32,208 bases of DNA from Cirrosporium novae-zelandiae (lineage: Eukaryota): contig JAPETS010000052.1 of assembly GCA_026023565.1 (NCBI GenBank), positions 124,001 to 156,208 on the forward strand, written 5' to 3'. Both the position numbers and the translations under genes were made by a program. Below, piece after piece: positions 2,595 through 24,176 of the stretch (position 1 is the first letter of the stretch; every line of letters starts with the position of its first letter). The notes beneath the pieces were generated by a model. That model did no database searches and was not told the origin of the DNA. It saw only the letters and a program-made list of their open reading frames with translations.

Positions 2595-4265
2595 CTATGC
2601 AGATGCTCCTTCTCCACCCTCCTTCTCGATAACTGCTGGAGCATTGATGGTCCGACCTTTCAAAAATGTCAAGCCCTCACCTCCCTATATAACCGTTAAT
2701 AACATTATCGTGATAACCCTAGGGAATGAGAGGTCACGACTTACATAGCTAATCCGCGGAGAAACTTCGACACCGGTTTGTCCCTCGTTGACGACGATTC
2801 CTCCAGCGGCCCTCACCCATCTAGCGCCTTGATCTAAGATATCTTTCTTGCTCGTATCTGCATCGTCCTCACCTGTGCCCCTGGCATTCTTGAGCGGCGA
2901 AAATTCGTCTTCGCGTTTCACTTCCAACGAAGCGAATTTGTCTAATGGAAGCATAGGGAAGCAATCAAAGACAAACTGCTCTAGCTTGATACCATTTGGC
3001 TTTTCTGGCTTCTTGTATTCTCCAGTCTCCGTATCAGTGAAAGGAATCTTCTTGCGAGCCACATGGTGAGGCAACTTGTGAGACCACTCTTCGATCGAGT
3101 CCAGGAATCTGAAAGAATAGTAATGATTGACGATGTTAGCCGCTCGGAATTTAAGGAGGTCTGCATGTTTCAAGTCCTTTGCTTCTGATGTCTCCTTGTC
3201 TATCTCCGAGTATTCTACTACATCAGGCTTTCCATTCTTGAGTAGGATCAAGCCCACAGACTCAGTTGCATTTCGCTTGCGTACAACCTTCGTAGCAATA
3301 TCCACATTCTTTGAAGCGGAAAACCCAGTAAAAACGGGGTCAGCTACTTTGACGAGACAGTTGTCAACGCAGTAGGAATGAACATGCTCAATCCCTCGTT
3401 TTCGCATATCTGTCCTAACATCGGAAGTAACCAAAGCTTGGTAAATTCCACCGTTACCATCTGGCGCAACTGCGACCTGAATAAATTTGTAAGCATCAAT
3501 GCTGATCCACTACTTGAGAGCATAAGAGACCTTTGATTTGCTTTCGAGCAGAATCTTGCCGTCATTTGAGATACAAGGAAGCACTCCTTGTTCAAATATA
3601 ACAACATCCTCCTTATTCAATCCAAAGTAGTTATGTTCCTCAAAAAACTTCTCCGTAGTGCCCCTTGTTGGTCCACTTGTCATCACATACCAAGGTACCA
3701 CCACTTTATCCTTCTTATAGTTTGTTTGAGCAAGCTGCTGGACTTTCCAAATTCGTTCAGCTTGAATCTGGAACAATGACTTATGGCTAGGTAGACCAAT
3801 ATCGTAGCAACCTTTGGGAGCAGAACTTCCGAGGCGTGTTCCCTGGCCTCCAGCCATCAAGACCACAGCAACTTTGTTTTCCGCAATGAGCTCCAATCCA
3901 TAAGTGTACCATTTCTCAATATCATTAGGGTTCGAGTCAAGAACAGAAGCGGTAGCGGATTCAGGGAGAGGCTCGACTGTAGCCTGTTCCTTCGCAGCTG
4001 GCGGTGGGTTTAAAGCCTTATGAGATATTTCATTGATATGATTCGGATCAATAGTGCTGAGCTGGGCAAAGAGCTGTGCTTTGTCGGTGGTATTTAGTTC
4101 ATCATAGAAAGTGAAGACCTGTTCTTGCTTAGCCTCTACATATTTCTTGCGAAGTTCTTCTAATTCCTCTTCTGTGGGCTCCTTGAGTGACACTGGGGCG
4201 TCTTTCGAAGAGAGGTGGAGTTTATCGAGTAAGGTGTTTACGGTATCCTTCACAACAGCGGCCAT
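2595..4265 (-). CDS. UAP1: UDP-N-acetylglucosamine pyrophosphorylase, 3 exons
   Basis: Motifs [42 protein letters not shown] and [19 protein letters not shown]. Introns at 3477-3530 and 2685-2744; the last exon reads [29 protein letters not shown]. Confidence 0.95.
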
Positions 4266-4939
4266 GGTTACTGAAAGGGTTAATAATTGCAGTACGTGTT
4301 CGTCGTGCAATGTATAGACCTGAAAGTCCCCTTATCAATAACAAGTGACTGGTGGTGAATTAACGACAAAGAAATTGAAGAGTTGGATGGGTTTTGAATA
4401 GAAGGTGTTTCAGCACTGCCCACCCATATGAATTGAAAGTTCACCGTGCTTGGCCCGCAGACTGTCACCAATCCAATTACTGCCTCTCATCCAACCACAT
4501 GGAAATTCTATTTTTAAGGCACAAAATCCCAGTGTGTAATCGTATTTCATTGCTGCCCTGATACAGACCATGAACTAAAGACGGATGCCGACTTTCTACA
4601 AGCTTCAAGTTAGTATATCTACGCAATAGATAGCCGAAGCCACTTGCCAATCAGTCGCAAGTTATTACAGCGCGTCATGGTCAAACACGCAATAGTCCTT
4701 TGGCGTTCAATTGATAAATACGGTATAATACAAATATTTGGGAAGAAAAACACCCAATCACTATCCTTGCAACGCCCTCGTCATAATGCCTTTAGATGCC
4801 TGACCAAAAAAAGCAAGCTCTGTGGATCATAATGAATCGACGGCCTTTAAGACATTTGAGCCACAAACCCCAACCAATACCCAAGCCACAAATATCGTCA
4901 AAAATACCCAATTTCTGTACAGGGATCATAGATTCCTTG

Positions 4940-6364
4940 TCATCTCCTTCCACGATAATGTTCACGGTCGTTACGATCGTCTGGAGATCTTCTGCGGCGG
5001 CCGTATCGATTAGGGGAACGACTTTCAAAGCGGTCTCCTCCTCGCTGGTGTGGACTTCGACTTCTGGGAGAGATACGGCGAGGGGCGTAATGGTCATCTT
5101 TTTCCTGCCTCCCCTTGATGTCGTTCCTGTCAAAAACCATCCTATAACCTTTAGACCTTCCTTCTGTATCTGCAGCACGGTATTGTCTCTTCTTCTCTAA
5201 GCCAGATATGCCTCCAAAGCCACCACCTTGTCTTGAGCGCTTAGCATTTGTAGCCGTCCGCCAACTATCTGAGAGCTTTGAAACACTTTGTGAGAAGTCG
5301 ACATGAATCCGGTGGTCGTCAATGCTGACACCTTGCATCTTGAAATATGCCTGTTCGCAGGCTTCCTTCTCTTCGTACTCTATAAACGCATACTGAAGAC
5401 TGTCACCGGTCCGTTTATCGCGAATGACTTCACAGGAAAGGATTTTTCCAAATCGTCCAAATATAAGTTCGAGATCTTCATCTGCAGTAACCGGATTCAA
5501 TTTGCAGACAAAGAGAACATTTTCTGGAGGTTTGACTTCTGCAAAAGGTAGGTCTCCAACCATTTCCAAAGTCAAGGCCTGAGCTCTTGCTTCCCGCTCC
5601 CGTCGAAGCTTTTCCAACGCTTCCTCATCCATGTTATCGGCCAGGTCCTCGTCATCAGCGATACGCACTGTAGCGAGTTGTGCTTTGCTTGGGATAGGGC
5701 TTTCATCGGGGACGACCAAGCCAGGGGGATCATCGTATGGATCATCGAGGATAACCGTATGTCGGATGCGAATATCTTTCAAGGGTCTCCCTTTATCATC
5801 GCAGAAGGCAGAATTAACTTTTTCTAGGATGTCGAAGCCTTCAACAACCTTACCAAAAATGGCAGCTTTGCCATCCAGATAATCAAGATTGTCCCCAAGA
5901 GTGATGATAAACTGGCTGCCTGCAAGTCGCTTGTCCTGGTCCTTGGAGTCAGGAACGGTGGCTAGACTGACGGTGCCTCTCTCTGCATGTTTAAGTCGGG
6001 GATTGATTTCCGGCACGAACGTTTTCTGCGAACCGCCCTGTAGTATTCCCCAGATAGATGAACCTCCATCGCTTTCTGGGGCATCAGGACCAATCGGATC
6101 GCCTGTTTGAAAGGAGAAGTTCTTCTGCACCTCATAAATGGGCGCAAAATTGTAGTACTTTATTTTGCATAGCTTTAAGAAGCTGTATGGCGCGTATGAA
6201 ATCTTAGTGCTTGTCTTCAGCATCTTAACTGGTAGTACAGGGTGGGAGCAAGTGGAATAAAGGAGGGGGGGAAGGGGAGCTCACTTTTGACAGGCTTTTG
6301 GTGCATCGTCAGCCAGCAGGTCAATAACAATATCTCCTAGGGAGGTCTCGAGTAAGACGCTCAT
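4940..6364 (-). CDS. PPIL4: Cyclophilin-RRM peptidyl-prolyl isomerase (PPIL4/Rct1/Cyp6 type), 2 exons
   Basis: Exon 1 [27 protein letters not shown], intron 6183-6284, then [24 protein letters not shown] (cyclophilin domain), [33 protein letters not shown] (RRM) and an RS-rich tail. Confidence 0.93.
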
Positions 6365-11410: not shown

Positions 11411-12319
11411 GGTCTAGCTGGATAGGATTAACATGTGCATCTTGGGTAGACTTATCCTTCAAACTTGAGTTAATAAGGAAGTGGGATTAGGTTCGCATTT
11501 TATTACTGTCTAACCTCTGACGGCTCAGGTTGTGTGCCAACCCAACTCGGACCTACTAAAACTATAACTCGAATTTCATTTAAAGAAAAAACAAAACTAT
11601 TAATGGTATTGGGAATGTGGATGGAGTCAACAGGAGTGAGATTTTAATCAGCGATCTATTTGTAGACGCACAAAAGTCTTTCATAAGGAATGTTTTTCAA
11701 TTAGCAATGTCTAGCTATGTACGTCCCCTATGTACTCCTACACACAAAGTTGGTGCAAAATGAGATAATACCAAAAGCGCAGCATCTGTGGTAACTGGAT
11801 ATCCTTGGGCTGGATCTCATGAATTATTCGGGCGATAGATTGATTTCTCTTTGGTACCACGTGAATGTTCTATTTCCAAGGGGTTTGACATCCTTGTGTT
11901 ATTTCTTACATTTCGGGTCTCTCACTCTAGGGATACAATGTTTCTGATGTAGATAGACAAATCGGATGGTGCGATTTCAAAATGCCCATTCTAAACTAGA
12001 GAGGGACCTTGGTTAGCATAGCGCCTGGTGGGCAAACAAAAGTTCTGACATCAACATTAATGAGATAGAAGAATGATTGATGATAATGAACGAGACAATG
12101 AAAAACGCGAGCGCGAAAATCCTTTTTTTTGTAATTGTCTTAAGAAAACGCCGAGTCTCTCGTAATCTCTGACCTGATCTCTGAGGATTCGATTGGAAAG
12201 CTATTTCACATGGGAGCATCACAGACATGGCCCCATTATCTGTCGTAAAGCTTTTCCCATAAACATTCCCATCGTTGTTCGAAGCCAGTGAAAAACAACA
12301 CCATCCACTTGCCAACAGC

Positions 12320-12877
12320 CTATTTCTTCTCCTTCTTGGCACCCTTGGTCTTCGCAGTACCCCGGAACTCCTTGGACCTGTTCTTGCGTTGTTTGCCTGA
12401 GGAGAAAACATCAGTAAACCGCTAGATATCTCAACCCATGGTGATAACGTACGTTGTTGTCTGCTGGCTCGCTCTGTTTTCTTTGTAACACCAATTCTCA
12501 CCAATCTGTGCAGAGGTTCGAACTTTTTAAGGGCTTCGCTTGAATCGTAGATGAGGGCAAAACCGGTGCTCTTTCCACCACCGTACTGGGTTCGGAATCC
12601 AAAGCATTGCACTTGGTCTTTGTTGCATTTATAAAGCTCAGAGAGCTTTCCTCGGAGTTCGTCTTTGGAGACGTTTGCTCGGTTTGGATGGAGAACATCG
12701 CTATTAGGAAATAAAGAATCAGCATCCAGGCAGTAGAAATCTTCATATCCACACTCATCGCGGTGACCGTGGCTATCAGTCACAAAATTCGAACACATAC
12801 ACCACCATTTGTTTGCGGCCTAGGAGGGCATTGCGCAGGAACTTGCGAGTGCGCAGGGTAACGGGTTGATCAGCCAT
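12320..12877 (-). CDS. RPS24: 40S ribosomal protein S24 (eS24), 3 exons
   Basis: [90 protein letters not shown]. Introns at 12701-12800 and 12397-12452. Confidence 0.97.
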
Positions 12878-13140: not shown

Positions 13141-14421
13141 ATGGCAGAGAAATATCTAGCAGAGGTATCGAGATTCAAGGATCAATACCTACAACTCTTT
13201 GATCCGGACTTGCTAATATTTCCACCTCCCGAGCTTCTTAAAAAAGAGAATATCCAAAATTCGCTCTACTCGGAGATATTCAAGGAAGGATCTTTGATAT
13301 ATGAACCTCCACCACGTTACAAATTTCGTGTGCTCAAGGATCTTATGACGAGGATTGAGAATGCTATAACCGACCCTGAGGAGGATGTATGCTTTCCTTA
13401 AACTTCTACTTTTACCATTTCCGCGCATTATCTAAAAACTGATAACACTACTCATCCCCCTAGGAAATCTCAGATGAATTGATGTCCTTATTGACAAATC
13501 TCCTAGCTGAACGACTACCTAGCGAACTAGACCAAGCACAACGACAATCATACGTTACATATACAGTCCCAAAGTCGTCTCTGAATGAACCCTCAAATCG
13601 CGTTACTATATTAGAATCAAGAAACCTCATCGCCACATCTGGAGGTACAGGCTATCGGACCTGGGAGGCTGCTCTTCACCTTGCCAATTACATCTGCTCA
13701 TCCGAAGGGAAAAAATCAGTGAAAGGGAAAAATATACTGGAACTAGGCGCTGGGACTGGGTTGCTATCGATCACTGCCACAAAATGCCTAGGTGCCAAAT
13801 TTGTACTGGCAACGGATGGCGATGATAATACCGTGGATAATATCGGAACTAATATTATCTTAAATAATTTCGGATGTCTTGGTATTAAGACCATCGAGGC
13901 TGCCACATTGAAGTGGGGCATGAGCTTGGATCAAAAGGTAAAAGGGGCTTGCGATTCTTACGATATCGTACTCGGGGCTGACATAGTAAGCATATTTCTT
14001 TCAAGTTTTTCTGGAGATCAGTGCTCCCCTACTGCTCAATAAGAAACGCCTACCTAGGTGTTTATTTCCCTAACTTGCCGTAGACATATGATCTTCGAAT
14101 CATTCCCCTTCTTGTCTCTACTCTTCGTGATCTTTTCGATGAATACCCTAATATTGAAGTCCTGATATCCGCAACCGTACGCAAAGAAGAAACAGTAGCT
14201 TGCTTCGTGAAGGCCTGTGGTGAGTGCATATTTAGTACTTTATCATTTCTTTGCTTGGCTAATATTGAATTTTAGAAACAAATGAATTCCTTGTTAAGTC
14301 TATTAGCCGTGATGTACCGCCATTAGCCCAACAAAGTGGCTTGTTTTACACATCAACAGTCCCAATCCGCATTTTCTCGATTCGTCGTTTGGCGCCTAAA
14401 AAGGACCCTTTCGCAATTTGA
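13141..14421 (+). CDS. EFM3: Protein-lysine N-methyltransferase of the EFM3/EEF2KMT (FAM86) family, 4 exons
   Basis: N-terminal PPPRYKFRVLK (FAM86-like), GTGYRTWEAALHL, ILELGAGTG (motif I), VLATDG and VLGADI|TYD. Introns at 13387-13463, 13986-14083 and 14220-14275; stop TGA 14419-14421. Confidence 0.85.
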
Positions 14422-14700: not shown

Positions 14701-16134
14701 CTAGTTTTTCCTACATTCGGGACAAAACCATTTTCCCTGGGGCTCCTTAGTCATCCCAACACAATTCCAATGGAACCACTCGTACGGACACGCAGGGTTA
14801 TCGCACGCAACCATATTCCCATAGCTGACACTCCGACAAGTACAATACTTCTTATCCTCGTCGCCTTCGGCGTCATCTTCACCCTCGCCCTCTGCGTCCT
14901 CATCCCCTGCATCTTCCATCTCATCCTGCGTCGACGCCCGCCGATGGCGACTATTGCTTCCTCCACCGACGACACCTCCCTGATAATGGGAATGCAAGTG
15001 CGAATGCGAGAGCGGAACGGAGGTGTCGGAGGCAACTTCACTGAGAATTGAGTCATCGTCCTCGTCGATACTAAGGTCGCCTGCAGGAGTGCCTTTGCGC
15101 TTGCGGGACGACCCCGAAGAGGTGGATTTGGTACCTTTGAGTTTACGGATCGCTGCGTGATGCGGCGCGAGTCTCTTGGACGCAGCTGTTTTCTTGGTAG
15201 TGGCGGCTGCGATCGTCGAGGAGCGAGGGCCTGCGCTCCCGCCACGAATGGATCCTGCTGGGGTGCCTGGTTTGGGGGTTGCAGGGCCGAGGGATGAGGT
15301 ACGGGTTAGACCCGAGGGGGGGAGTTGGAGAGCTGTGTTGAGGCGACGGCGTTTTGTGTTGGTGCCTGTGGAGGCGTCAGAGACTGGGGTTGCGGAGGAT
15401 TCGCGGTGGCGGTTGGTGATATGGAGGGTTTGATGGTGGGTAGGCGTTGGCGTGGAGGCATTGTGGGCTGTGGAGAGGGGGTGCGATGCGGATCGTTGGC
15501 TTATTGATGGTTGCTGGAGAAGACGGTTGAGAGCAGGGTTTCCTAAGGCGCTAGATAGCATGGATGAGGCAACCGGCGTGGAGGTGCCGGTAGAGGGATG
15601 CGTTGATAGTGAAGAAGAAACGAGGTTTGCGGGACTAGCGTGAAGGAGAGATGGTAATGGAGGATCTCGTGAAAGAGTGCCTTCGCGTTGGAGATCTCGA
15701 ATTTTCTGATCAAGCCGCTTGGTATGGCGGTCGAGCTAGACATATATCAATGTAGAGTCAAAAGATATAGATAGGGTTAACTTACGAGGAGGGCAGCCTT
15801 ATCAGTCAACGCAATTTTAGCAGTCTGTAACTCCTGTGCCTTTTCATAGTTTGCGAGTATTATTTTGTTGTACTGCTCCTCCTTTGGATGAGGGACGTGA
15901 CTACCGTTCAGTTTGATGTGCTTCTGAATGTTGCCATCCAGGTTGCGAATTATGCTTCTGCATTCTTGGATGATTTGATCTTTGGCTTGGATCTCTTCTA
16001 GGTAATGAGATATTTCGGCAGGTAGATTTGCAACTGAGATGCCTGTCAATACGAAAAGTTTGTATTTATATTTGATAGAGCATACCGTCAATGATAAAGT
16101 CCTCCAATACTGTTGCGGCATCCTCGGCCGTCAT
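14701..16134 (-). CDS. YNG2: ING-family PHD-finger chromatin reader (Yng2/ING3-like, NuA4 subunit), 3 exons
   Basis: [46 protein letters not shown] (ING N-terminal domain) and a C-terminal [41 protein letters not shown]. Introns at 16034-16085 and 15736-15785. Confidence 0.88.
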
Positions 16135-16882
16135 ATTCCGTATGTGGTCCGTGCGTAAGACGACAGAGAAGGAGAAGCAGAAGGACTTCTGACGTGAGAT
16201 AGAGAAAACGGAACTTCTCGCTCTGCAGATATCGCAAGAAAGAAATGAAAAGGAGAAGTTAGATTAACTACCTAGGTAGCTACTACTGCCTTCAGGTTGC
16301 TTGCAGTCTTGAAAAGCGCAATAATTACCACATAAATGATGACAGTGATAGACTTGAAGCTTGGATATAGGCGAAACAACGACAGAAAATCTCTGGCAGG
16401 ACGTCAAGAGAATCTTTAGATGTGTTGGTATCGTCGATTTAAAGGACGGTAGAGACAGTATCACTGGTAAAGGTGTTTTCAAAGACGGAGGCTTTGATGG
16501 AGTTGATGGAATGTCGTTGAAATCAAGTTTGCACTATTAGGCTTAGCGTTCAGCCTTACATATCTACATTCGCCACACCCAATATCAAATTCTTGAAAAC
16601 AGGTCATCTGGCTTCTATTTTTGGATCCGATTATTTTGATCCTCATTATCGCATGATTTTAAAGAATCATTCATATTCAAATTTACTCTTTCCCTCTTTC
16701 AATTGAAAGAGACTACAGTAAAATTTTGCTTGGTTGATGAAGACTGGGTATGCATCTAATAGGCGCTCGCTAGTGTTTCGAGCCGAATTCTGAACTCAAA
16801 GAAGACTTCAATACCACCATCATACATTCACTTTTGTTAACCTTCAAATCTTATTTATACCTCCTTCGCCGCTATATGCAAC

Positions 16883-18322
16883 ATGGGGAGATCAAGTCGC
16901 TCGAGCGTTGTCCAGGACTATAACTTCCCTCAACCTGGATCAACATCAACTCTAACACTTGATCAAAAAACCCAAAATGAGATCGCCCAAAGTCCAATAC
17001 CCCGACCGTCCGGTTATGATGTTTCTTGGCATTTCAACCCTGAAGTTGAGAGACACCACTTTGGCCAAACTCATCCTATGAAACCATGGCGTCTCACCCT
17101 CACTAAACAGCTTGTGATAGCTTACGGCATGTACGAAGCTATGGACCTCTATCTTACTCGTGCCGCCACACGCCAAGAAGTTGCCGAATTCCACAGAGAT
17201 GACTACATCGACTTCCTCCAAACCATTACACCGGCGAATATGGACAGCCTTCCAGATCTTGAGGGGACGTTCCGTACTTACAACTTTGGTGACGATTGCC
17301 CTGTATTTGACGGCCTTTGGAATTATTGTACGTTGTATGCAGGTGCCTCGGTTGATGCTGCCCGTAAGCTGTGTAATGATCAGTCCCAAATTGCCATCAA
17401 CTGGTCTGGAGGCCTTCATCATGCCAAAAAGGGCGAAGCTTCGGGCTTTTGTTATATCAACGACATCGTACTTAGCATCCTGCAGCTCCTTCGAATACAC
17501 CCTCGCGTCCTCTACATCGACATTGACGTCCATCATGGAGATGGCGTCGAACAGGCATTTTGGTCTACTGATCGTGTCCTCACCCTATCCTTCCACAAAT
17601 ACGATGGCGAGAATTTCTTCCCTGCCACTGGACCACTGGATTCAACCGGGCCTACCAATCCCCTCAACCCAGGCGCACATCACGCCCTCAATGTCCCCCT
17701 CAATGACGGGATCGAAGACGACAGTTACATTGAACTATTCAAAGCAATAGTTGGTCCCGTCATCGGCACCTACCACCCATCAGCCATTGTCCTTCAATGC
17801 GGTGCCGATTCCCTGGGGTGCGACCGGCTAGGCTGCTTTAACCTTAACATTCGCGCCCATGGGGCCTGCGCGGCTTTCGTCAAGTCCTTCAAGCTCCCAA
17901 TGCTTGTTCTTGGCGGAGGAGGCTACACTCCTCGTAATGTCGCGCGACTATGGGCGCACGAAACATCCATCATGATTGAAGCTTCCGATCGAATTTCCGA
18001 ACAAATTCCCACGCACACACCCGCTCTGGCTCTCAATGCCTTCCAACCCGAAGGGCCCACGCTTTTCCCCAAACTGACAGGTAGGCACGCAAATCACAAT
18101 ACGAGAGAGTACTTACATAGTCTCGTCGAGGCAATACACGAGCAACTGAGGTATTTGAAAGGGGCGCCAAGTACGCAGCTGCAGGTAATTCCACCGGACC
18201 TGATGGGCTTGAGAGAAGAAGTTGAGGATGAGTTAGCAGAAGGTAAGGAAGATCGGGAAGAAGAGAGAAAGAGGAGGGAACGAGGCGTCGGGACTAAGGG
18301 ATGTGTGATAGGCCTGGCGTAA
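16883..18322 (+). CDS. HOS2: Class I histone deacetylase, Hos2/HosA type (intronless)
   Basis: HFGQTHPMKPWRLTLTKQL (Hos2-type), GGLHHAKK..SGFCYINDIV, DIDVHHGDGV, QCGADSLGCDRLGCFNL and GGGGYT catalytic motifs are intact. Confidence 0.93.
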   Translation: MGRSSRSSVVQDYNFPQPGSTSTLTLDQKTQNEIAQSPIPRPSGYDVSWHFNPEVERHHFGQTHPMKPWRLTLTKQLVIAYGMYEAMDLYLTRAATRQEVAEFHRDDYIDFLQTITPANMDSLPDLEGTFRTYNFGDDCPVFDGLWNYCTLYAGASVDAARKLCNDQSQIAINWSGGLHHAKKGEASGFCYINDIVLSILQLLRIHPRVLYIDIDVHHGDGVEQAFWSTDRVLTLSFHKYDGENFFPATGPLDSTGPTNPLNPGAHHALNVPLNDGIEDDSYIELFKAIVGPVIGTYHPSAIVLQCGADSLGCDRLGCFNLNIRAHGACAAFVKSFKLPMLVLGGGGYTPRNVARLWAHETSIMIEASDRISEQIPTHTPALALNAFQPEGPTLFPKLTGRHANHNTREYLHSLVEAIHEQLRYLKGAPSTQLQVIPPDLMGLREEVEDELAEGKEDREEERKRRERGVGTKGCVIGLA

Positions 18323-18820
18323 AAGCCTATGCACTTAAACCATGGTATGATCTCGAGATTTTGGAGATTATTGCAATTAGGAAAGGAGGAGTAAGCTTTC
18401 TAGGCGTTGTGCGTGAAAGTGATGATAGACGCTTAAATGCGCTGAATAAGGACAAGGCATACCTTAGTTGTGCTCCACATGGCGTTGTTCAATGGACGGA
18501 CACTACGGCGTTTTGGAAAGGAAATAAGGGAGTGAAGGCAGGGTCTGGATTGTTTATTCTACGAGGAAGATACTAGTTGGATAAAGCTCTCGTGAAGGTG
18601 TATTATAGCTTTGTGTTCTGTACCTAAAGAACGTGAGTAACTTGATGTGAATACCGTGAAGCAAGTCTCATTGATTGGAAGCCATTTCCAAACAACACAC
18701 GAAGTCAAACCGACCCATATCAGTTCGCACTCGCCCCATAACTCTACCGCACTCCGACCTAGTCAACACATGACCCCACGCCCTCCCTTAAATAATCGCT
18801 TAACATCCCCTCTTTCAACG

Positions 18821-18909
18821 GCCCTAGTAGTTCAGTTGGCAGAATCTCACAGTATCTGTGCTTGCACACGACTCTTGTGAAGACGTCGGTTCGAATCCGA
18901 CCGTGGGCG
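18821..18909 (+). tRNA. Atypical intron-containing tRNA gene, Asp-like, apparent anticodon ATC (possibly non-canonical or pseudo)
   Basis: Cloverleaf: acceptor GCCCTAG/CGTGGGC (2 mismatches), D arm GTTC-AGTTGGCA-GAAT, anticodon stem TCACA/TGTGA, variable AGAC, T arm GTCGG-TTCGAAT-CCGAC, discriminator G. A and B boxes are intact. Removing a 17-nt intron (18858-18874) gives 72 nt with loop G-T-ATC-T-T. Confidence 0.75.
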
Positions 18910-19305
18910 CCTCAAGAATTATACACTGCACGTTATATTTCATGGGAGGAAAACACCGGTGATTCGGGTTTTCATAGGATGCCTCTAATCTGCGATTAAG
19001 CGGGAGTACATCTGAACTTTTTGTCATTTCTTCCTCTGAATTTTTTTTCTTCCCCTCTCTAGTTAGCTAAATGTAAGGTGAATGAATGAACGAGTCTTTT
19101 TTTTCAAGATATTATAACGACAACTCTATAACTATGATATAAGGATAAGGATACAAAAACAATCTCCCTGTCTCCGAATCCTACAATCGCAATCGACCAA
19201 CAAACCATCCCCCTCCCCCATCTATACCCATAATCGCCCATCCTCAAACATCAAAGGAAAAGAAAAAAATATATCAAACTCCAATACCCCCCCCCACAGC
19301 CACAC

Positions 19306-19779
19306 TCAATCATGGTCCATAGAATAGCCGTCGGAGTCTGGATAGTCTGAATCGTCAGAGTCACTACTCCCATATTTATCATTTCCAGTACAGCTCAATG
19401 CCAGCAGCCGAACCGGCAGGTAGAGAATCCTGGCCATTTCTCCCGCCTCTAGTAGCAAAATTGCCCAGGCCCCCATGAAGACGGACCAGACGACATTGCA
19501 GCAGGATATTGGGGTGCCGCTTGAACTTGGCTGGGATGTGGTGGTTGTGGTTGTTTGGTGGTGATCAGAGGAAGAAGTGGAGAGGTTGCTGGCCTGGGGA
19601 AAGAAAGAAGGGTTAGGCTATTTATTAGAAGGCTGCTAGCTTGTTTGAGAGGTTCGAGGGGGTGTTGTGTTGGACCAAATGGTGGGAGGGAAACTCACAT
19701 GTGTGAGATTTACGAATAAGATGAAAGCCAGGAAGGATTTGAATTTGACATGAGGTGGAGAACGTAATGTGGAGCTCAT
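19306..19779 (-). CDS. Small orphan protein (~122 aa), putative signal/anchor + S/T-rich stalk + hydrophobic segment + acidic tail, 2 exons
   Basis: Exon 19779-19699, intron 19698-19594 (GTGAGT..CTAAC..CCCCAG), exon 19593-19306 in frame: MSSTLRSPPHVKFKSFLAFILFVNLTH|ASNLSTSSSDHHQTTTTTTSQPSSSGTPISCCNVVWSVFMGAWAILLLEAG..SDSDDSDYPDSDGYSMDHD*. Confidence 0.6.
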
Positions 19780-20460
19780 GCTCGCTGTATTTAGGGACGG
19801 CTTACCGAGGGTATGGTACGGTTTCAATGGTAACAAAAGGACAAATTTAAGAAGTTCAAGGGGTTCCCGACACCTTATGAATTCAAAAAAAACCTTAGGG
19901 ATGAGAGAGACGCTTGAATATCTTGAGCTGGACGAAAAAGGGAATCGATTTATTTTAGTTATCTTTTTTGCATTTGTTAGGGTGGAAAGGAAGGTGGTCG
20001 TAGCTGTGAGATGAGTTGGAGCTCAGGAAAGAATTAATGTCATGACGCAACTGACTGACTGACTGCGCTTGCCAGCGCTTCTCTGGTATCTTGTTCATTT
20101 TTGAATGAATGTCTCCTTATTATTCGTTCTCTACTCGTGTGGTATATATATATACCTTCCCTTCTCTTGGGAGTAAGTTGACATAGGCATCTAGGCTAGT
20201 ATTCTATTTACATGCGAAGAAGTTAAACAGAGGAGTTTAATCTCCCACGTTTCATTTAACTCTCATGTATAGACTATATAAGTAATGAGATTTGGAATTG
20301 AAATTGAACATGGGATTGGGGAATAGGCTTTTTTGGCAAATGTTGATGATGTTTGGGGGAGGTCTCTAGGGAAAATGAATGAGTACTAAGGTGGGAATGG
20401 CTGAAGCATGTGTGTTTGAGTTTTTGATTTTTTGTATTAGAAGATTCATTCGCTTGTCCT

Positions 20461-20506
20461 ATCCATCTACCTCATCCATCTACCTTATCCATCCATCCAT
20501 CCATCC
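20461..20506 (+). repeat. (ATCC)n microsatellite with 13-bp duplicated unit
   Basis: atccatctacctc atccatctacctt, followed by (atcc)5. Confidence 0.8.
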
Positions 20507-20620
20507 TAGGCAGGATGTAGTGTGTATTACTTGAATAAATATAATACTTTTCAAAAGAGAAGAAACGAAAGAAAAGAAACGCCCATCCATATCATAAAAT
20601 CGTTGGTCTTAGATCTTCCC

Positions 20621-21003
20621 TTACTTTCTTGAGAAACAGAGCGCTTTCTTCATCCATCTGTAGGCGATACGCATATATGTTAGTCGGAATAATCAAAATT
20701 TTTATAAATGAATGAAGCATGGTATGTAATACCTTAGAGAGGAGTTGGTTTTTACTCACCTAAGCTTGAAAAATTTCTTAACTTTGGCACCTAAGGGGGC
20801 CTTTGGTGGTGGATGGGGTGGAGGCATAGGATTTCCCTGTCGCTCGTCACGTTAGCTCGATTATATTTGGAGTGAGAAATAGGTAGCCGTTTGATATGAC
20901 GTGCCCGTATTAGTAACTCGTACGGGATGGAGCCATTAAGGGGGCCCATGTACCCCTGAAATTCGATTTCGATTAGGTCGAGGCTATTTGGGGGAGGTGC
21001 CAT
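20621..21003 (-). CDS. Small orphan protein (~70 aa), Pro-rich with basic C-terminus, 3 exons (first intron probably GC-AG)
   Basis: Exon 21003-20905; intron 20904-20837 (CGG|GCACGT..GCTAAC..ACAG); exon 20836-20760; intron 20759-20658 (AG|GTGAGT..CTAAC..TACAG); exon 20657-20621. Product: MAPPPNSLDLIEIEFQGYMGPLNGSIPYELLIRGNPMPPPHPPPKAPLGAKVKKFFKLRWMKKALCFSRK*. Confidence 0.5.
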
Positions 21004-21099
21004 GTGGTGGATCGTTTGTGGTATTTAGATGTTTGTAGTGTATTGCATTTATGCTTTGTAGTTTGTGATTTGTAAAGTTCCTGTAGAAAGCAAGTTGGA

Positions 21100-21760
21100 T
21101 GAATGGTAGAAGTAAATGTGAATGAGGCCTTGCTTTGCTCTGAAATGAAGGAGGGTTCTCCCTCGTGTGGAATGCTTCAATATTTAGACCAGGAGACAGC
21201 TGAAACCCTCAATCCCACTGTGATTGAGGGCCCCTTTGTTGAAGAAACCTGCATACAATGCATAAAAGCCGGCTCGATCACGAATCGAGATTCTATCCAA
21301 CCATCATAATCTTGCTTGATGGTCATCTCTAGAGCTTATGACAATATCCTGTTCGGAGGCCTTGCCTACTCTTTTCCTACGTACTTTGGGGGGTTGACAC
21401 AAGCCATTAAGGATTCCGTTCATAAACAGCACTAACTTATCCATCTCCTCATCTTCTTCTTTTCTTTTTTCTCTAGCAGCAATGGGGCAATTGGGCGTGC
21501 CTTCCAGCACCCCTTGTACCATGCAGTAGTGTAGTAGAGTTGTGCTAAAAAAAATACAGCTCTACAAGTGCTCCAATTTTTGATGGCTACCACCTTTTTT
21601 CATTGATATCTCACTTGATGAGGGAGCTCAGAGAAAAGAGAATTGTTCTCATGTATTCTAAATCTTGGAACTGAAGGTTGAGGATGTTTCTCGACGTTGA
21701 GCTTAGGGATATCCTGCAATAATACAAAAGTCTTCGACAACATGCCAGTCTCCAACATGT
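21100..21760 (-). pseudogene. Decayed unknown gene, paralogous to the relic at 22573-24089
   Basis: One frame runs through the 21304-21522 ORF with scattered stops. Segment 21249-21318 aligns with 23261-23329 (+). Boundaries are approximate. Confidence 0.5.
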
Positions 21761-22245
21761 CCTTTGTACAGCAGTTTAAGCAGATAGAAAAGTCGATATA
21801 AGAGTTAGTCGTTCTTTTTCCCGGAAACCAGTCAGGGGACGGTTATAAGAGCGTATACTGGCCAGTCATGATAGTTGTTAGTGGCTAACCCAATGTTAGA
21901 GTTGCGAGAGAGTAAACCGCAGTATTTTATCTACTCTTGGGCTCGAGGAAAAACCAAGTAAACTTTCTTGTGGTTAATATGCCATAGAGTACATGACTAA
22001 ATGGACCTTTTGAGCAACTCAGAGGAGTAACACGATTATCCCTTAGTCTCTTAAAATGTCTTGTAGTTGCCTATTACGGAGCGTGAAGTCTGCGATTTCA
22101 CTCATGTCGAAGTTATGCTAGGAAAAAAGCATTCATGTCTGAGGAAAGGCAGGGCAGGGGTCGATCACTTGACAACCTACATGCTAAATGTCCTCTAAAG
22201 TTTTTCTTTGTGGCTTGCTGTACGTCTACCTCTTCATCCATCAAT

Positions 22246-22309
22246 ATTCACGACCATCGATATTCACGATTATTCGACATTCACGATTATCGACACTCAC
22301 AACTATCAT
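22246..22309 (+). repeat. Minisatellite, ~16-bp unit x4
   Basis: ATTCACGACCATCGAT / ATTCACGATTATTCGAC / ATTCACGATTATCGAC / ACTCACAACTATCAT, followed by a CTTTT/CTT tract (22326-22365). Confidence 0.75.
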
Positions 22310-22572
22310 AAAAACTCGTTCAGTATCTTCTTTTTCTTTTTCTTTTCTTCTTCTTCTTCTTTTTCAACCAGCTTCTTCAACCATACAGTTCATATCTATT
22401 CTCTAGTCAACCGGAAAGAGTCGCAGGATCTATTTTCAATCATCTCTTAGCTAAGTTAGGGCGAGCTCCCCGTCTCGACGTTCTATCTTACTTGAATGCC
22501 TGAGCTGGCACTGCTTAAACGGACTTGAAGCTGAGAAGGTATTGTTGGAAAATAGGATCTTCCGAAAAGACC

Positions 22573-24089
22573 ATGTCGGGTAAGTGCTGCGTCCCAGGTT
22601 TTCCCCATCACGGTTTTGTCTAATCGATGTTTTAGTCTAGGAGAAAGGTCGACACCGGCCTCTTGTGGAGAAGACAGCGTAGCCTCCTGCTAGTTCTATC
22701 ACCTTCTACAGGGTTAATGGAAGGGATTTGAAATTTCTGACCTTTGATGATACAGAGTTTCGATGCTAGAATAACTAAAGTGGGCACTCCAGTATCTCAC
22801 TGCCTCTGTGATTTTGTGTATCGTTCTTTATTAAATTTATCCAAAATATTCTAGTTATACTATCTAGTCTTGGCACGGCATCTTCCGAGATCCTTAACAG
22901 AAACCACACCTCGGGCACGGCTAGATCATGTGACCATGCACCCAGTCCATGCTTGCACCCTTTAAATATTCAGATTGAACGACCAACTATTCATGCTGAA
23001 TTGTCCCTTCAATATCCAGTACTATTGTTTGAAGTCCTCTTGGTGAGGTCTCTCTTTCATATCACCAAAGACTCCTAAGAAGGACGAAGCCTGTAGCCAG
23101 GTTAGAGACCTAGCAACCAAACTAGTTCGCGAGAAAAGGGCATTCAGATTCCCGAATGCTCCTCTAGGTGATACTGGGATGGAAACATTGATCGTTCAAG
23201 CTCAAGCCATCACTTTCACTAGATCAACAAGGAATCCTAACGGCCTATCAAATCATGATGAGCAAGGAAGATGATGCTTGAGTAGGATCACAATCCATGA
23301 TCGAGTTGGCTTTTATATATTTTATGCAGACGTTGATGTCGATTTGAGCGACACTATATATTCCTCTGCACCGCGCGCAGAGGATCACACAGATCCAAGC
23401 ATACCTATCGGAACTAGCGGCACCAAGACCCTTATATGCTCCCTAGAAATTCAAGCCGAGCTTCCTACACGAGAATAATATACGATACTTCAGGACTGCG
23501 GAGAATCTCTTGGGTGATTGCATCAGAAAGAGGGGAGCTCTCCTGGTGAGGGGGTTTATCTCTTCCAGGACCTAGCTGAGGATTGTTTTGTGAAACAAGA
23601 ATCAGCTGGGTCTAGGGCAGAGAAGACCCTGCTCGCTAGGCTCCCATCTTCTTGGAGGCCAAGCACTATCTAGGGTGACGCAAAATCCAAATGCTGGAAG
23701 AGAATTTCCAAAAAGCGAGTTTATAAAAGACTTTAGCAAACAAGTATTCGTTCGATATTAGTATCAAATAGAGCAACTTCTCAAGGCTTAAGATAGAAAA
23801 AGGTATGTTTTGTATCAGCTTTTTCTTGAAATGGTATTTTTCCAACGGGTTTAACTTCATCAGCAGGGTTAAACGTGCAGGCGGTTTCTTGTGAGCAGAA
23901 CTTTAGAGACATAGGCCGCGGGAAAGGCATACGCCGAAAACTTTTGCTGGAATCGGGGTCATTGGATTGACATTAACAGAAGCTGAAATAGGGGAAAGAG
24001 TCGAAGAAACCAAAAGGCAGACATTCGAAGACCATGTCGTTCGGCCAAGAATCGAGGAGTTTCTAAAGATTAATAAGATTACTTCTTAG
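22573..24089 (+). pseudogene. Decayed multi-exon gene of unknown family
   Basis: ATG TCG G|GTAAGT intron 22580-22635 and a later intron 23803-23866 (AG|GTATGT..CAGCAG). Protein-like frames are interrupted by many TAG/TAA/TGA codons. Confidence 0.55.
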
Positions 24090-24176
24090 AAAAACTATAC
24101 TTCCGGCAGTCGTGAAGACTATTTAGCGCATAAATAATTTAGAAAATAACAAACAGTTGGCGCAAATTTCGGTAGA

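What the first reader, a model, noticed from the sequence alone, without database searches (positions are those of the whole stretch)
18821..18909. Non-canonical Asp-like tRNA with an ATC anticodon and broken acceptor stem: possible non-ribosomal or specialised tRNA
Seen: intact Pol III A/B boxes, fully paired D, anticodon and T stems, a G10.U25 pair, a 4-nt variable loop (AGAC) and a G73 discriminator. With a canonical 37/38 intron (17 nt), the loop reads G32-U33-AUC-U37-U38. G32 can pair with the antepenultimate intron base (C18872), preserving the anticodon-intron pair used in tRNA splicing. Pairs 5:68 (U-U) and 6:67 (A-G) are mismatched. Known: G73, G10.U25 and U35/C36 are yeast tRNA-Asp identity elements. 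Eukaryotes decode Asp with GUC and avoid A34 in split boxes because I34 could misread Glu GAA; position 32 is normally a pyrimidine and 37 a purine. Inference: the RNA looks built to be transcribed, spliced and aspartylated yet poorly suited to decoding. It could serve as a donor for tRNA-dependent transfer (filamentous fungi have ErdS, which makes ergosteryl-aspartate from Asp-tRNA), act as a mistranslating or regulatory tRNA, or be a young pseudogene.
Basis: partly seen in the sequence, partly recalled or inferred. Interest (0 to 1): 0.8.

Follow-up and report, generated by a model that had tools for sequence, protein, structure and literature searches.

The report
Atypical fungal tRNA gene, probably decaying
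This is a real tRNA-shaped gene with an intron, sitting downstream of a fungal histone deacetylase gene, but its anticodon loop and acceptor stem are too abnormal for ordinary decoding, so it is most likely a lone degenerating tRNA gene and not a new kind of RNA.

Summary
Window 18821-18909(+) is the only tRNA match in the 32-kb window (Rfam tRNA, 42 bits against a threshold of 29). The D, anticodon and T stems are fully paired. G10.U25, the 4-nt variable loop AGAC, G73 and the U5.U68 and A6.G67 mismatches are all as described.

Removing a 17-nt intron at 37/38 gives the loop G-U-A-U-C-U-U. None of 8 intron placements and neither of 2 possible stem registers gives a normal loop. ARAGORN places the intron at 33/34 and calls Ser(ACT).

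The functional reading is not supported. Two of the five strong aspartate determinants, G34 and C38, are missing (PMC9976931). ErdS works with ordinary tRNA-Asp (PMC7334510, PMC13219428). The first run of five T lies 108 nt downstream. No RNA data and no related genome could be reached.

The tRNAscan-SE 2.0 paper lists Asp-ATC among "unexpected anticodons", "probably not functional" (PMC8450103).

My estimates are: degenerating or orphan tRNA gene about 0.55, non-decoding functional tRNA-like RNA about 0.2, other readings lower. Interest is low to moderate.

The parts
18821..18909 (+). tRNA-like gene (89 nt including the intervening sequence), positions 1-73
   Evidence: Rfam RF00005, 42.0 bits, full-length match. 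ARAGORN -i finds the same span.
18825..18826 (+). Acceptor positions 5 and 6 (T, A), which face T18904 and G18903. These are two adjacent non-Watson-Crick pairs.
   Evidence: Sequence. Marked 'vv' in the Rfam alignment. Pairing probability is 0 for both pairs and 0.27 for neighbouring pair 7:66 in the spliced form.
18828..18839 (+). A-box-like segment (positions 8-19, TAGTTCAGTTGG) inside the D arm (18830-18845, G10.T25)
   Evidence: Sequence. The comparison with the A-box consensus is recalled, not computed.
18852..18857 (+). 5' part of the anticodon loop: G32 T33 A34 T35 C36 T37 if the intron is at 37/38
   Evidence: Sequence. Enumeration of loop readings.
18858..18874 (+). Putative 17-nt intron at the canonical 37/38 position. 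G18870-A18871-C18872 is complementary to a GUC anticodon, and C18872 can pair with G32.
   Evidence: Rfam shows 24 nt where the model has 7. The MFE fold pairs the anticodon region with the intron. ARAGORN's alternative places the intron at 18854-18870.
18875..18875 (+). T38, where the aspartate determinant would be C38
   Evidence: Sequence. Identity set from PMC9976931.
18885..18901 (+). T arm GTCGG/CCGAC with loop TTCGAAT. B-box-like GGTTCGAATCC at 18888-18898.
   Evidence: Sequence. Rfam alignment.
18788..18796 (+). TATA-like TTAAATAAT, 33 to 25 nt upstream of position 1
   Evidence: Sequence only. Any role is inferred from recalled knowledge of fission-yeast Pol III promoters and could be chance in a 44% GC genome.
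18969..18972 (+). First T4 run after the gene, starting 60 nt past G73
   Evidence: Sequence.
19018..19022 (+). First T5 run, starting 109 nt past G73. A T8 run follows at 19041-19048.
   Evidence: Sequence.
18968..19023 (+). 56-nt segment that recurs, with 6 differences, on another contig of the same assembly. The match ends at the T5 run. It may or may not belong to the tRNA unit.
   Evidence: read-laying table 8, X1 record 3. The loose end before it resembles window 18936-18967.

Best explanation
A single-copy nuclear tRNA gene of the small-variable-loop class, closest in features to tRNA-Asp. It carries a short protein-spliced-type intron next to the anticodon. It has lost what a decoder needs and is most likely a degenerating or orphan tRNA gene.

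Shown:
- tRNA architecture with all D, anticodon and T pairs intact, and the usual conserved nucleotides present.
- A loop that is non-canonical under every splice reading (G32, U37, and A34 in a two-codon box).
- Two adjacent mismatches that leave a 4-bp acceptor helix.
- No nearby T-run terminator.

Inferred:
- The intron's GAC, complementary to GUC, suggests descent from an intron-bearing tRNA-Asp(GUC) by G34-to-A and further loop changes.
- TFIIIC and Pol III may still bind the A and B boxes and give some transcript.
- That transcript would be poorly charged, because G34 and C38 are missing.
- With a weakened acceptor stem it would probably be unstable, so it contributes little or nothing to translation.
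For: - The loop fails Y32/U33/R37 for 8 of 8 intron placements and in both possible 5-bp stem registers.
- Pairs 5:68 and 6:67 are mismatched. In the spliced form the cloverleaf (-20.2 kcal/mol) is not the minimum-energy fold (-20.7). Its ensemble probability is 0.03 and pair 7:66 forms with probability 0.27.
- The RF00005 score of 42.0 would rank below 50 of 54 tRNA matches (31.3-72.4 bits) found in 20 of the 119 metagenome loci. The intron accounts for part of that deficit.
- There is no T4 run for 59 nt and no T5 run for 108 nt downstream.
- Only 3 of 5 strong aspartate determinants are present (PMC9976931).
- The tRNAscan-SE 2.0 paper names Asp-ATC among eukaryotic 'unexpected anticodons' and calls such predictions 'unusual and probably not functional', though not automatically pseudogenes (PMC8450103, passage read).
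- The flanking genes are ordinary housekeeping genes.
Against: - The defects are not spread as uniform decay would predict. All 14 pairs of the D, anticodon and T stems and the conserved D-loop and T-loop nucleotides are intact, while 4 or more defects sit in the anticodon loop and mid-acceptor stem. My rough post-hoc estimate of that happening by chance is 0.01-0.04 (my own arithmetic, not a tool result).
- The precursor keeps a plausible splicing architecture: anticodon-intron helix, G32-C18872 pair, and the 3' splice site in a 3-nt bulge (fold and sequence).
- A TATA-like element sits at -33 to -25.
- No parent gene was identified.
- Human tRNA genes without a nearby T4 run can still terminate (PMC3141230, abstract in search listing only), so a distant terminator does not prove silence.
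Confidence: 0.55

Rival explanations
1. A functional tRNA-like RNA that does not decode. It would be transcribed, spliced and folded like a tRNA and used outside the ribosome, for example as an amino-acid carrier for a tRNA-dependent transferase such as ErdS, or as a regulatory or sensor RNA.
For: - The three internal stems and conserved nucleotides are intact while decoding features are lost.
- G73, U35, C36 and G10.U25 are retained (PMC9976931).
- ErdS holds its tRNA as an entrapped 'prosthetic arm' (PMC13219428, abstract and passages).
- Bacteria do have tRNA isoacceptors partitioned to cell-wall synthesis (PMC7826273, title and abstract start only).
Against: - G34 and C38, two strong AspRS determinants, are missing, and ErdS binds the anticodon through its AspRS domain.
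- ErdS works with ordinary yeast or A. fumigatus tRNA-Asp, so no dedicated tRNA is needed.
- The acceptor helix, the part a transferase must handle, is the damaged part.
- There is no expression or conservation evidence, and no ErdS/DUF2156 gene among the 12 window ORFs scanned.
- The staphylococcal precedent keeps normal Gly anticodons (PMC4574755, abstract start).
Confidence: 0.2
2. The tRNA-like part is a Pol III promoter and processing handle for a longer unit. Transcription would run on about 110 nt to the T5 run at 19018-19022, and RNase Z would release a downstream small RNA, a dicistronic tRNA-X gene.
For: - There is no terminator directly after the tRNA.
- A 56-nt piece of the trailer (18968-19023) recurs on another contig of the same genome with 6 differences. 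Its upstream flank is also similar, and the match stops at the T5 run.
- Fungal Pol III dicistrons exist: Yarrowia tRNA-5S (PMC2566860, title and abstract start only).
Against: - No RNA family other than tRNA was found in 18500-19400 even at E up to 10; the other 4 matches are far below their thresholds.
- The trailer fold is not clearly better than shuffles (z -1.8 and -1.2).
- The second copy showed no laid piece over the tRNA itself, so the repeat may be an unrelated dispersed element.
- There is no clean C/D or H/ACA box pair (by eye).
Confidence: 0.08
3. An active decoder. A34 would be deaminated to inosine and the tRNA would read GAU, GAC and GAA, giving low-level Asp/Glu mistranslation or filling a lineage-specific decoding role.
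For: The reading A34-U35-C36 with U33 is available under the canonical intron position. The tRNA body is otherwise intact.
Against: - G32 and U37 are very rare in decoders (recalled knowledge).
- G32.U38 can close the loop to 5 nt.
- The acceptor stem is weakened.
- A34 in a split codon box is among the anticodons eukaryotes do not use (PMC8450103).
Confidence: 0.05
4. A copy of a tRNA-derived SINE or other dispersed repeat, not a gene that decayed in place.
For: tRNA-like head without its own terminator; a repeated segment lies downstream.
Against: - There is no second copy of the tRNA part in the window.
- No second contig of the source run was laid on 18821-18909 at 80% likeness or more (this is weak, because filters can hide contigs).
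- No flanking target-site duplication was found.
- Introns are not expected in retroposed copies (recalled).
Confidence: 0.05

Closest known systems
Eukaryotic tRNA predictions with 'unexpected anticodons' (Asp-ATC, Pro-GGG, Tyr-ATA and others) flagged by tRNAscan-SE 2.0 (PMC8450103)
   Same: Good tRNA fold and internal promoter, with an anticodon that eukaryotes do not use. Treated as probably non-functional but not proven so.
   Different: This one also has G32, U37, U38, two acceptor mismatches, an intron and no nearby terminator. tRNAscan-SE itself could not be run here, so its score and isotype call are unknown.
Cytosolic tRNA-Asp(GUC) of yeast, with the identity set G73, G34, U35, C36, C38 and G10.U25 (PMC9976931)
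   Same: G73, U35, C36, G10.U25 and a 4-nt variable loop. That yeast tRNA-Asp has a 4-nt variable loop is recalled. The intron holds GAC, complementary to GUC.
   Different: A34 and U38 replace two strong determinants. G32 and U37 are abnormal. The acceptor helix is interrupted. The D arm is equally typical of Gly and Ala tRNAs in the metagenome sample.
tRNA-Asp as substrate of ergosteryl-aspartate synthase ErdS (PMC7334510, PMC13219428)
   Same: A tRNA of aspartate type used outside translation in Dikarya fungi.
   Different: The papers use ordinary tRNA-Asp. In the passages read, no special isodecoder is described ('isodecoder' occurs 0 times in PMC13219428). No link between this locus and ErdS was found.
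Non-proteinogenic tRNA-Gly isoacceptors of Staphylococcus aureus (PMC7826273)
   Same: A precedent for tRNA genes specialised for a non-ribosomal acceptor.
   Different: Bacterial. They keep normal Gly anticodons and intact acceptor stems (partly recalled; only listing text was seen).
[quoted passage not shown]
   Same: A fungal tRNA gene without its own terminator driving a downstream RNA.
   Different: There the tRNA is a normal functional tRNA and the downstream RNA is 5S rRNA. Here no downstream RNA family was detected.

Membership tests
tRNA (Rfam RF00005) | Covariance-model score at or above the curated gathering score over the full model | tested here: met
   42.0 bits against 29, model positions 1-71 of 71, E 8.1e-06 for the window.
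tRNA (Rfam RF00005) | Four-stem cloverleaf with 7/4/5/5 pairs | tested here: inconclusive
   The D (4), anticodon (5) and T (5) stems are fully paired. The acceptor stem has 5 of 7 pairs. The cloverleaf is 0.5 kcal/mol above the MFE in the spliced form.
Standard elongator (decoding) tRNA | 7-nt anticodon loop with pyrimidine 32, U33 and purine 37 | tested here: not met
   0 of 8 intron placements and 0 of 2 stem registers give such a loop. The rule itself is established knowledge (recalled).
Standard elongator (decoding) tRNA | An anticodon from the set used by eukaryotes | tested here: not met
   ATC under the canonical intron or ACT per ARAGORN. Asp-ATC is listed as an unexpected anticodon in PMC8450103.
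tRNA-Asp (aspartate identity) | G73 discriminator | tested here: met
   G18909. Determinant list from PMC9976931.
tRNA-Asp (aspartate identity) | Anticodon G34 U35 C36 | tested here: not met
   A34 U35 C36, so 2 of 3.
tRNA-Asp (aspartate identity) | C38 | tested here: not met
   T18875.
tRNA-Asp (aspartate identity) | G10.U25 pair (yeast) | tested here: met
   G18830/T18845. Not specific to Asp: the same D-arm pattern is mostly Gly, Ala and Trp in 118 metagenome tRNAs.
tRNA-Asp (aspartate identity) | Best score with the eukaryotic Asp isotype model | not testable with these tools
Eukaryotic intron-bearing pre-tRNA (Sen endonuclease substrate) | Intron one nucleotide 3' of the anticodon (37/38) | tested here: inconclusive
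   A 17-nt insert is compatible with 37/38, but the sequence equally allows other placements. The splice junction is not observed.
Eukaryotic intron-bearing pre-tRNA (Sen endonuclease substrate) | Anticodon-intron pair between position 32 and the third-last intron base | tested here: met
   G18852 and C18872 can pair. The MFE fold pairs G32 with C18874 instead, so the pair is possible but not predicted as most stable.
Active Pol III type-2 gene | A and B boxes | tested here: met
   TAGTTCAGTTGG at 18828-18839 and GGTTCGAATCC at 18888-18898. The consensus is recalled.
Active Pol III type-2 gene | T-run terminator shortly after the 3' end | tested here: not met
   First T4 run at 18969, first T5 run at 19018.
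Active Pol III type-2 gene | Transcript observed | not testable with these tools
   No RNA run is listed for this DNA.
tRNA-derived SINE | Many dispersed copies with target-site duplications | tested here: not met
   No other copy in the window. No other contig of the source run lies on the tRNA (weak). No flanking direct repeat. The whole genome could not be searched.
tRNA pseudogene | An identifiable functional parent and lack of conservation in relatives | not testable with these tools
   No genome is held. The nearest HOS2 relatives are only about 70% identical. No fungal genome collection is available.

The most novel reading that the evidence does not exclude
The locus encodes a stable, spliced tRNA-shaped RNA kept by selection for a job outside decoding. 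It could be an aspartate-type carrier tRNA held by a tRNA-dependent transferase such as ErdS, so that lipid aminoacylation does not drain or pollute the translational tRNA-Asp pool. Alternatively it could be a Pol III handle for the repeated downstream segment. The intact internal stems, retained G73/U35/C36/G10.U25 and preserved precursor architecture do not exclude this.
Probability: 0.12. Interest if true: 0.8.

Novelty: new member of a known kind. Interest (0 to 1): 0.25.

Why it matters
If it is a decaying gene, it matters only for annotation. It should be flagged as an atypical tRNA or pseudogene and not counted as an Asp or Ser decoder. It also shows that finders disagree on such genes: Rfam calls a tRNA, ARAGORN calls Ser(ACT), and the canonical intron rule gives Asp(ATC).

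If it were expressed and conserved, it would be, as far as the papers I searched show, the first eukaryotic tRNA gene specialised for a non-ribosomal use, and a natural test of how much of the aspartate identity set AspRS and ErdS need. Nothing found here lifts it to that level.

Tried and rejected
- **Own genome.** None is held, so the genome's tRNA-Asp, Glu and Gly genes could not be listed.
- **Sequencing runs.** 3 runs were listed. Only X1, the probable source, holds the stretch. No RNA holder is listed.
- **Laying X1-X3 at 80% likeness on 16800-19600.** X2 and X3 gave only short pieces inside the deacetylase gene (17075-17943) and nothing on the tRNA; they are unrelated organisms. No second X1 contig lay on 18821-18909.
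- **Pattern scans for relatives.** The strict body pattern gave 0 hits in metagenome contigs and 0 in viral contigs. The odd-loop pattern gave 0 hits in prokaryote genome contigs.
- **Relaxed D-arm plus T-loop pattern.** These are unrelated tRNAs that match this gene only over 25 nt or less of the D arm. They served only as a score and isotype yardstick.
- **Earlier findings of this scan.** Nothing was found for this sequence, place or genome. The word search returned only phage and bacterial tRNA-intron cases that do not bear on this locus.
- **Alternative intron positions or stem registers giving a standard loop.** Rejected.
- **RIP-type mutation as the cause.** Rejected by eye. The inferred changes at positions 32 and 37 and in the acceptor stem would be transversions, whatever the ancestor.
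- **Downstream C/D or H/ACA snoRNA, 5S or another RNA.** No Rfam support, and the folds are not clearly significant.
- **Bacterial-type promoter and terminator scan.** Nothing found, and not relevant to Pol III.
- **The A. fumigatus tRNA-Asp sequence from the ErdS papers.** Supplements were not opened and may hold it.

Full report
**What is there**

Window 18821-18909 on the + strand matches the Rfam tRNA model over its full length. The score is 42.0 bits against a gathering score of 29, with E 8.1e-06 for the 32-kb window. It is the only RNA-family match at gathering level in the window. A permissive scan of 18500-19400 added nothing credible: the other 4 matches are far below their thresholds.

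Reading the sequence against that alignment gives the following.
- Acceptor stem: pairs 1-4 and 7 are Watson-Crick, while 5:68 is U.U and 6:67 is A.G.
- U8 and A9.
- D stem GUUC/GAAU, with G10.U25 and an 8-nt loop holding A14, G18, G19 and A21.
- Anticodon stem UCACA/UGUGA.
- 24 nt lie between the anticodon-stem strands where 7 are expected.
- Variable loop AGAC.
- T stem GUCGG/CCGAC, with loop UUCGAAU.
- G73.

**The anticodon loop**

The sequence does not fix the splice sites. The eukaryotic rule (intron after position 37) gives the loop G32 U33 A34 U35 C36 U37 U38. ARAGORN finds no tRNA without introns. With introns allowed it removes 17 nt after position 33 and calls tRNA-Ser(ACT).

I enumerated all 8 ways of leaving a 7-nt loop, and all 5-bp stem registers in the region; two registers exist. 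None gives pyrimidine-32, U33 and purine-37. Under any reading this RNA does not have a decoder's loop. In the spliced form G32 and U38 can also pair and shrink the loop to 5 nt.

**The acceptor stem and overall quality**

In the spliced 72-nt form the cloverleaf (-20.2 kcal/mol) is slightly worse than the minimum-energy fold (-20.7). The minimum-energy fold keeps only four acceptor pairs and lengthens the T arm. The cloverleaf has ensemble probability 0.03, and pair 7:66 forms with probability 0.27.

As a yardstick, I scanned 20 of the 119 metagenome loci fetched with a D-arm pattern. They held 54 RF00005 matches scoring 31.3 to 72.4 bits, and 50 of the 54 score above 42.0. The comparison is rough. 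Those are mostly intron-less, prokaryote-like genes, and the intron costs this gene several bits.

**Is it aspartate-like?**

Partly. The review by Giege and Eriani (PMC9976931, passages read) gives five strong, conserved aspartate determinants: G73, G34, U35, C36 and C38, with G10.U25 added in yeast. This RNA has G73, U35, C36 and G10.U25 but lacks G34 and C38. The same review notes that an AspRS mutation which breaks contact with G34 is lethal in yeast.

Intron bases 18870-18872 read GAC, the exact complement of a GUC anticodon. Anticodon-intron pairing is usual in such precursors (recalled), so a G34-to-A change in an intron-bearing tRNA-Asp(GUC) gene is a reasonable origin.

Against over-reading the body, the D arm is not specific to Asp. 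Among 118 tRNAs carrying the same D-arm pattern in 119 metagenome loci, ARAGORN called 44 Gly, 24 Ala, 14 Trp, 11 Pro and 5 Asp, with the remaining 20 spread over other calls. Isotype-specific models could not be run.

**Transcription signals**

A-box-like (18828-18839) and B-box-like (18888-18898) sequences are present, and TTAAATAAT lies at -33 to -25. The first run of four T starts 60 nt after G73 (18969-18972). The first run of five T starts 109 nt after it (19018-19022), and a run of eight follows at 19041-19048.

From recalled knowledge, fungal tRNA genes normally have a T run within a few tens of bases. A human study shows that genes without one can still terminate (PMC3141230, abstract in search listing only). 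No RNA run is on record for this DNA, so expression is unknown.

**Relatives**

None could be reached.
- No genome is held for the window.
- The only run holding the DNA is its probable source.
- The two other runs of that study are unrelated organisms.
- Strict pattern scans found 0 matches in metagenome, viral and prokaryote contigs.
- The upstream protein is a HOS2-type histone deacetylase (Pfam PF00850). Its best non-self relatives, of 7921 proteins with E at or below 1e-50, are only 69-71% identical. They come from lichen-associated and other Pezizomycotina such as Hypocenomyce, Sclerophora, Pycnora, Sarea, Chaenotheca and Xylona.

The host is therefore a Pezizomycotina lineage without a close sequenced relative in these collections. 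Conservation, the decisive test, remains open.

**A side observation**

In the source run, a second contig (18.7 kb, same depth) matches window 18968-19023 with 6 differences in 56. The 30 letters before the match resemble window 18936-18967, and the match stops at the T5 run.

This could mean a tRNA-headed Pol III unit with a conserved trailer, in the way Yarrowia joins tRNA and 5S genes (PMC2566860, listing only). It could equally be an unrelated small dispersed repeat. Several results give the first idea little support:
- The trailer has no Rfam match.
- Its fold is not clearly better than shuffles (z -1.8 and -1.2).
- There is no target-site duplication.
- The second contig showed no piece over the tRNA.

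**Weighing**

For decay:
- A loop that is abnormal at three or four positions.
- A half-open acceptor helix.
- Two missing charging determinants.
- A distant terminator.

Against simple decay:
- All 14 pairs of the three internal stems and the conserved loop nucleotides are intact, while the defects cluster in two places. By my own rough, post-hoc count, four defects would avoid the other diagnostic positions by chance about 1-4% of the time.
- The precursor keeps a splice-competent look.

That pattern is what keeps a non-decoding function alive as a rival. The ErdS version of that rival is weakened. ErdS recognises the anticodon through its AspRS domain and works with ordinary tRNA-Asp (PMC7334510; PMC13219428). 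The 12 window ORFs scanned hold no related gene.

**Verdict**

- Observation: confirmed.
- Interpretation: partly supported.
- Best reading: a lone, degenerating or orphan tRNA gene of aspartate-like descent (0.55).
- Rivals: non-decoding functional tRNA-like RNA (0.2), Pol III handle for a downstream RNA (0.08), active I34 decoder (0.05), SINE-like repeat (0.05). The remainder is unassigned.
- Novelty: a new member of a known kind, an atypical tRNA gene with an unexpected anticodon.
- Interest: low to moderate until expression or conservation is shown.

Noticed in passing
window 18968-19023 (similarity probably from about 18936): This non-coding segment recurs with 6 differences in 56 on another 18.7-kb contig of the same assembly (X1 record 3). 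The match ends exactly at the T5 run. It may be a small dispersed repeat or a conserved Pol III trailer.
   Followed up: partly
window 18829-18838 and 19009-19018: A 10-nt inverted repeat, 90% complementary (AGTTCAGTTG / CATCTGAACT), lets the end of the trailer, just before the T5 run, pair with the A-box/D-arm region of the tRNA. It may be chance.
   Followed up: no
window 18323-24100: Nearly 6 kb after the deacetylase gene has no ORF of 150 aa or more on either strand. The stop-to-stop ORFs there are 128 aa or shorter, and the two scanned (19306-19617 and 19636-20022, minus strand) have no Pfam match. The stretch is gene-poor or holds intron-rich or non-coding genes.
   Followed up: no
window 16883-18322: The HOS2-type histone deacetylase has no relative above about 71% identity among 5.8 billion proteins. 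The organism therefore belongs to a Pezizomycotina lineage that is poorly sampled in public data.
   Followed up: partly
window 2685-4310 (-), 4940-6223 (-), 12013-12798 (-), 13479-14042 (+), 14701-15735 (-): The neighbours are ordinary housekeeping genes: UDP-glucose pyrophosphorylase family (in two ORF pieces, presumably split by an intron), cyclophilin-RRM protein, ribosomal protein S24e, a lysine methyltransferase and a PHD-finger protein.
   Followed up: no
window 18910-18911: The two bases after G73 are CC, followed by T, so ARAGORN extends the gene to 18911. Eukaryotic tRNA genes do not encode CCA (recalled), so this is probably chance.
   Followed up: no
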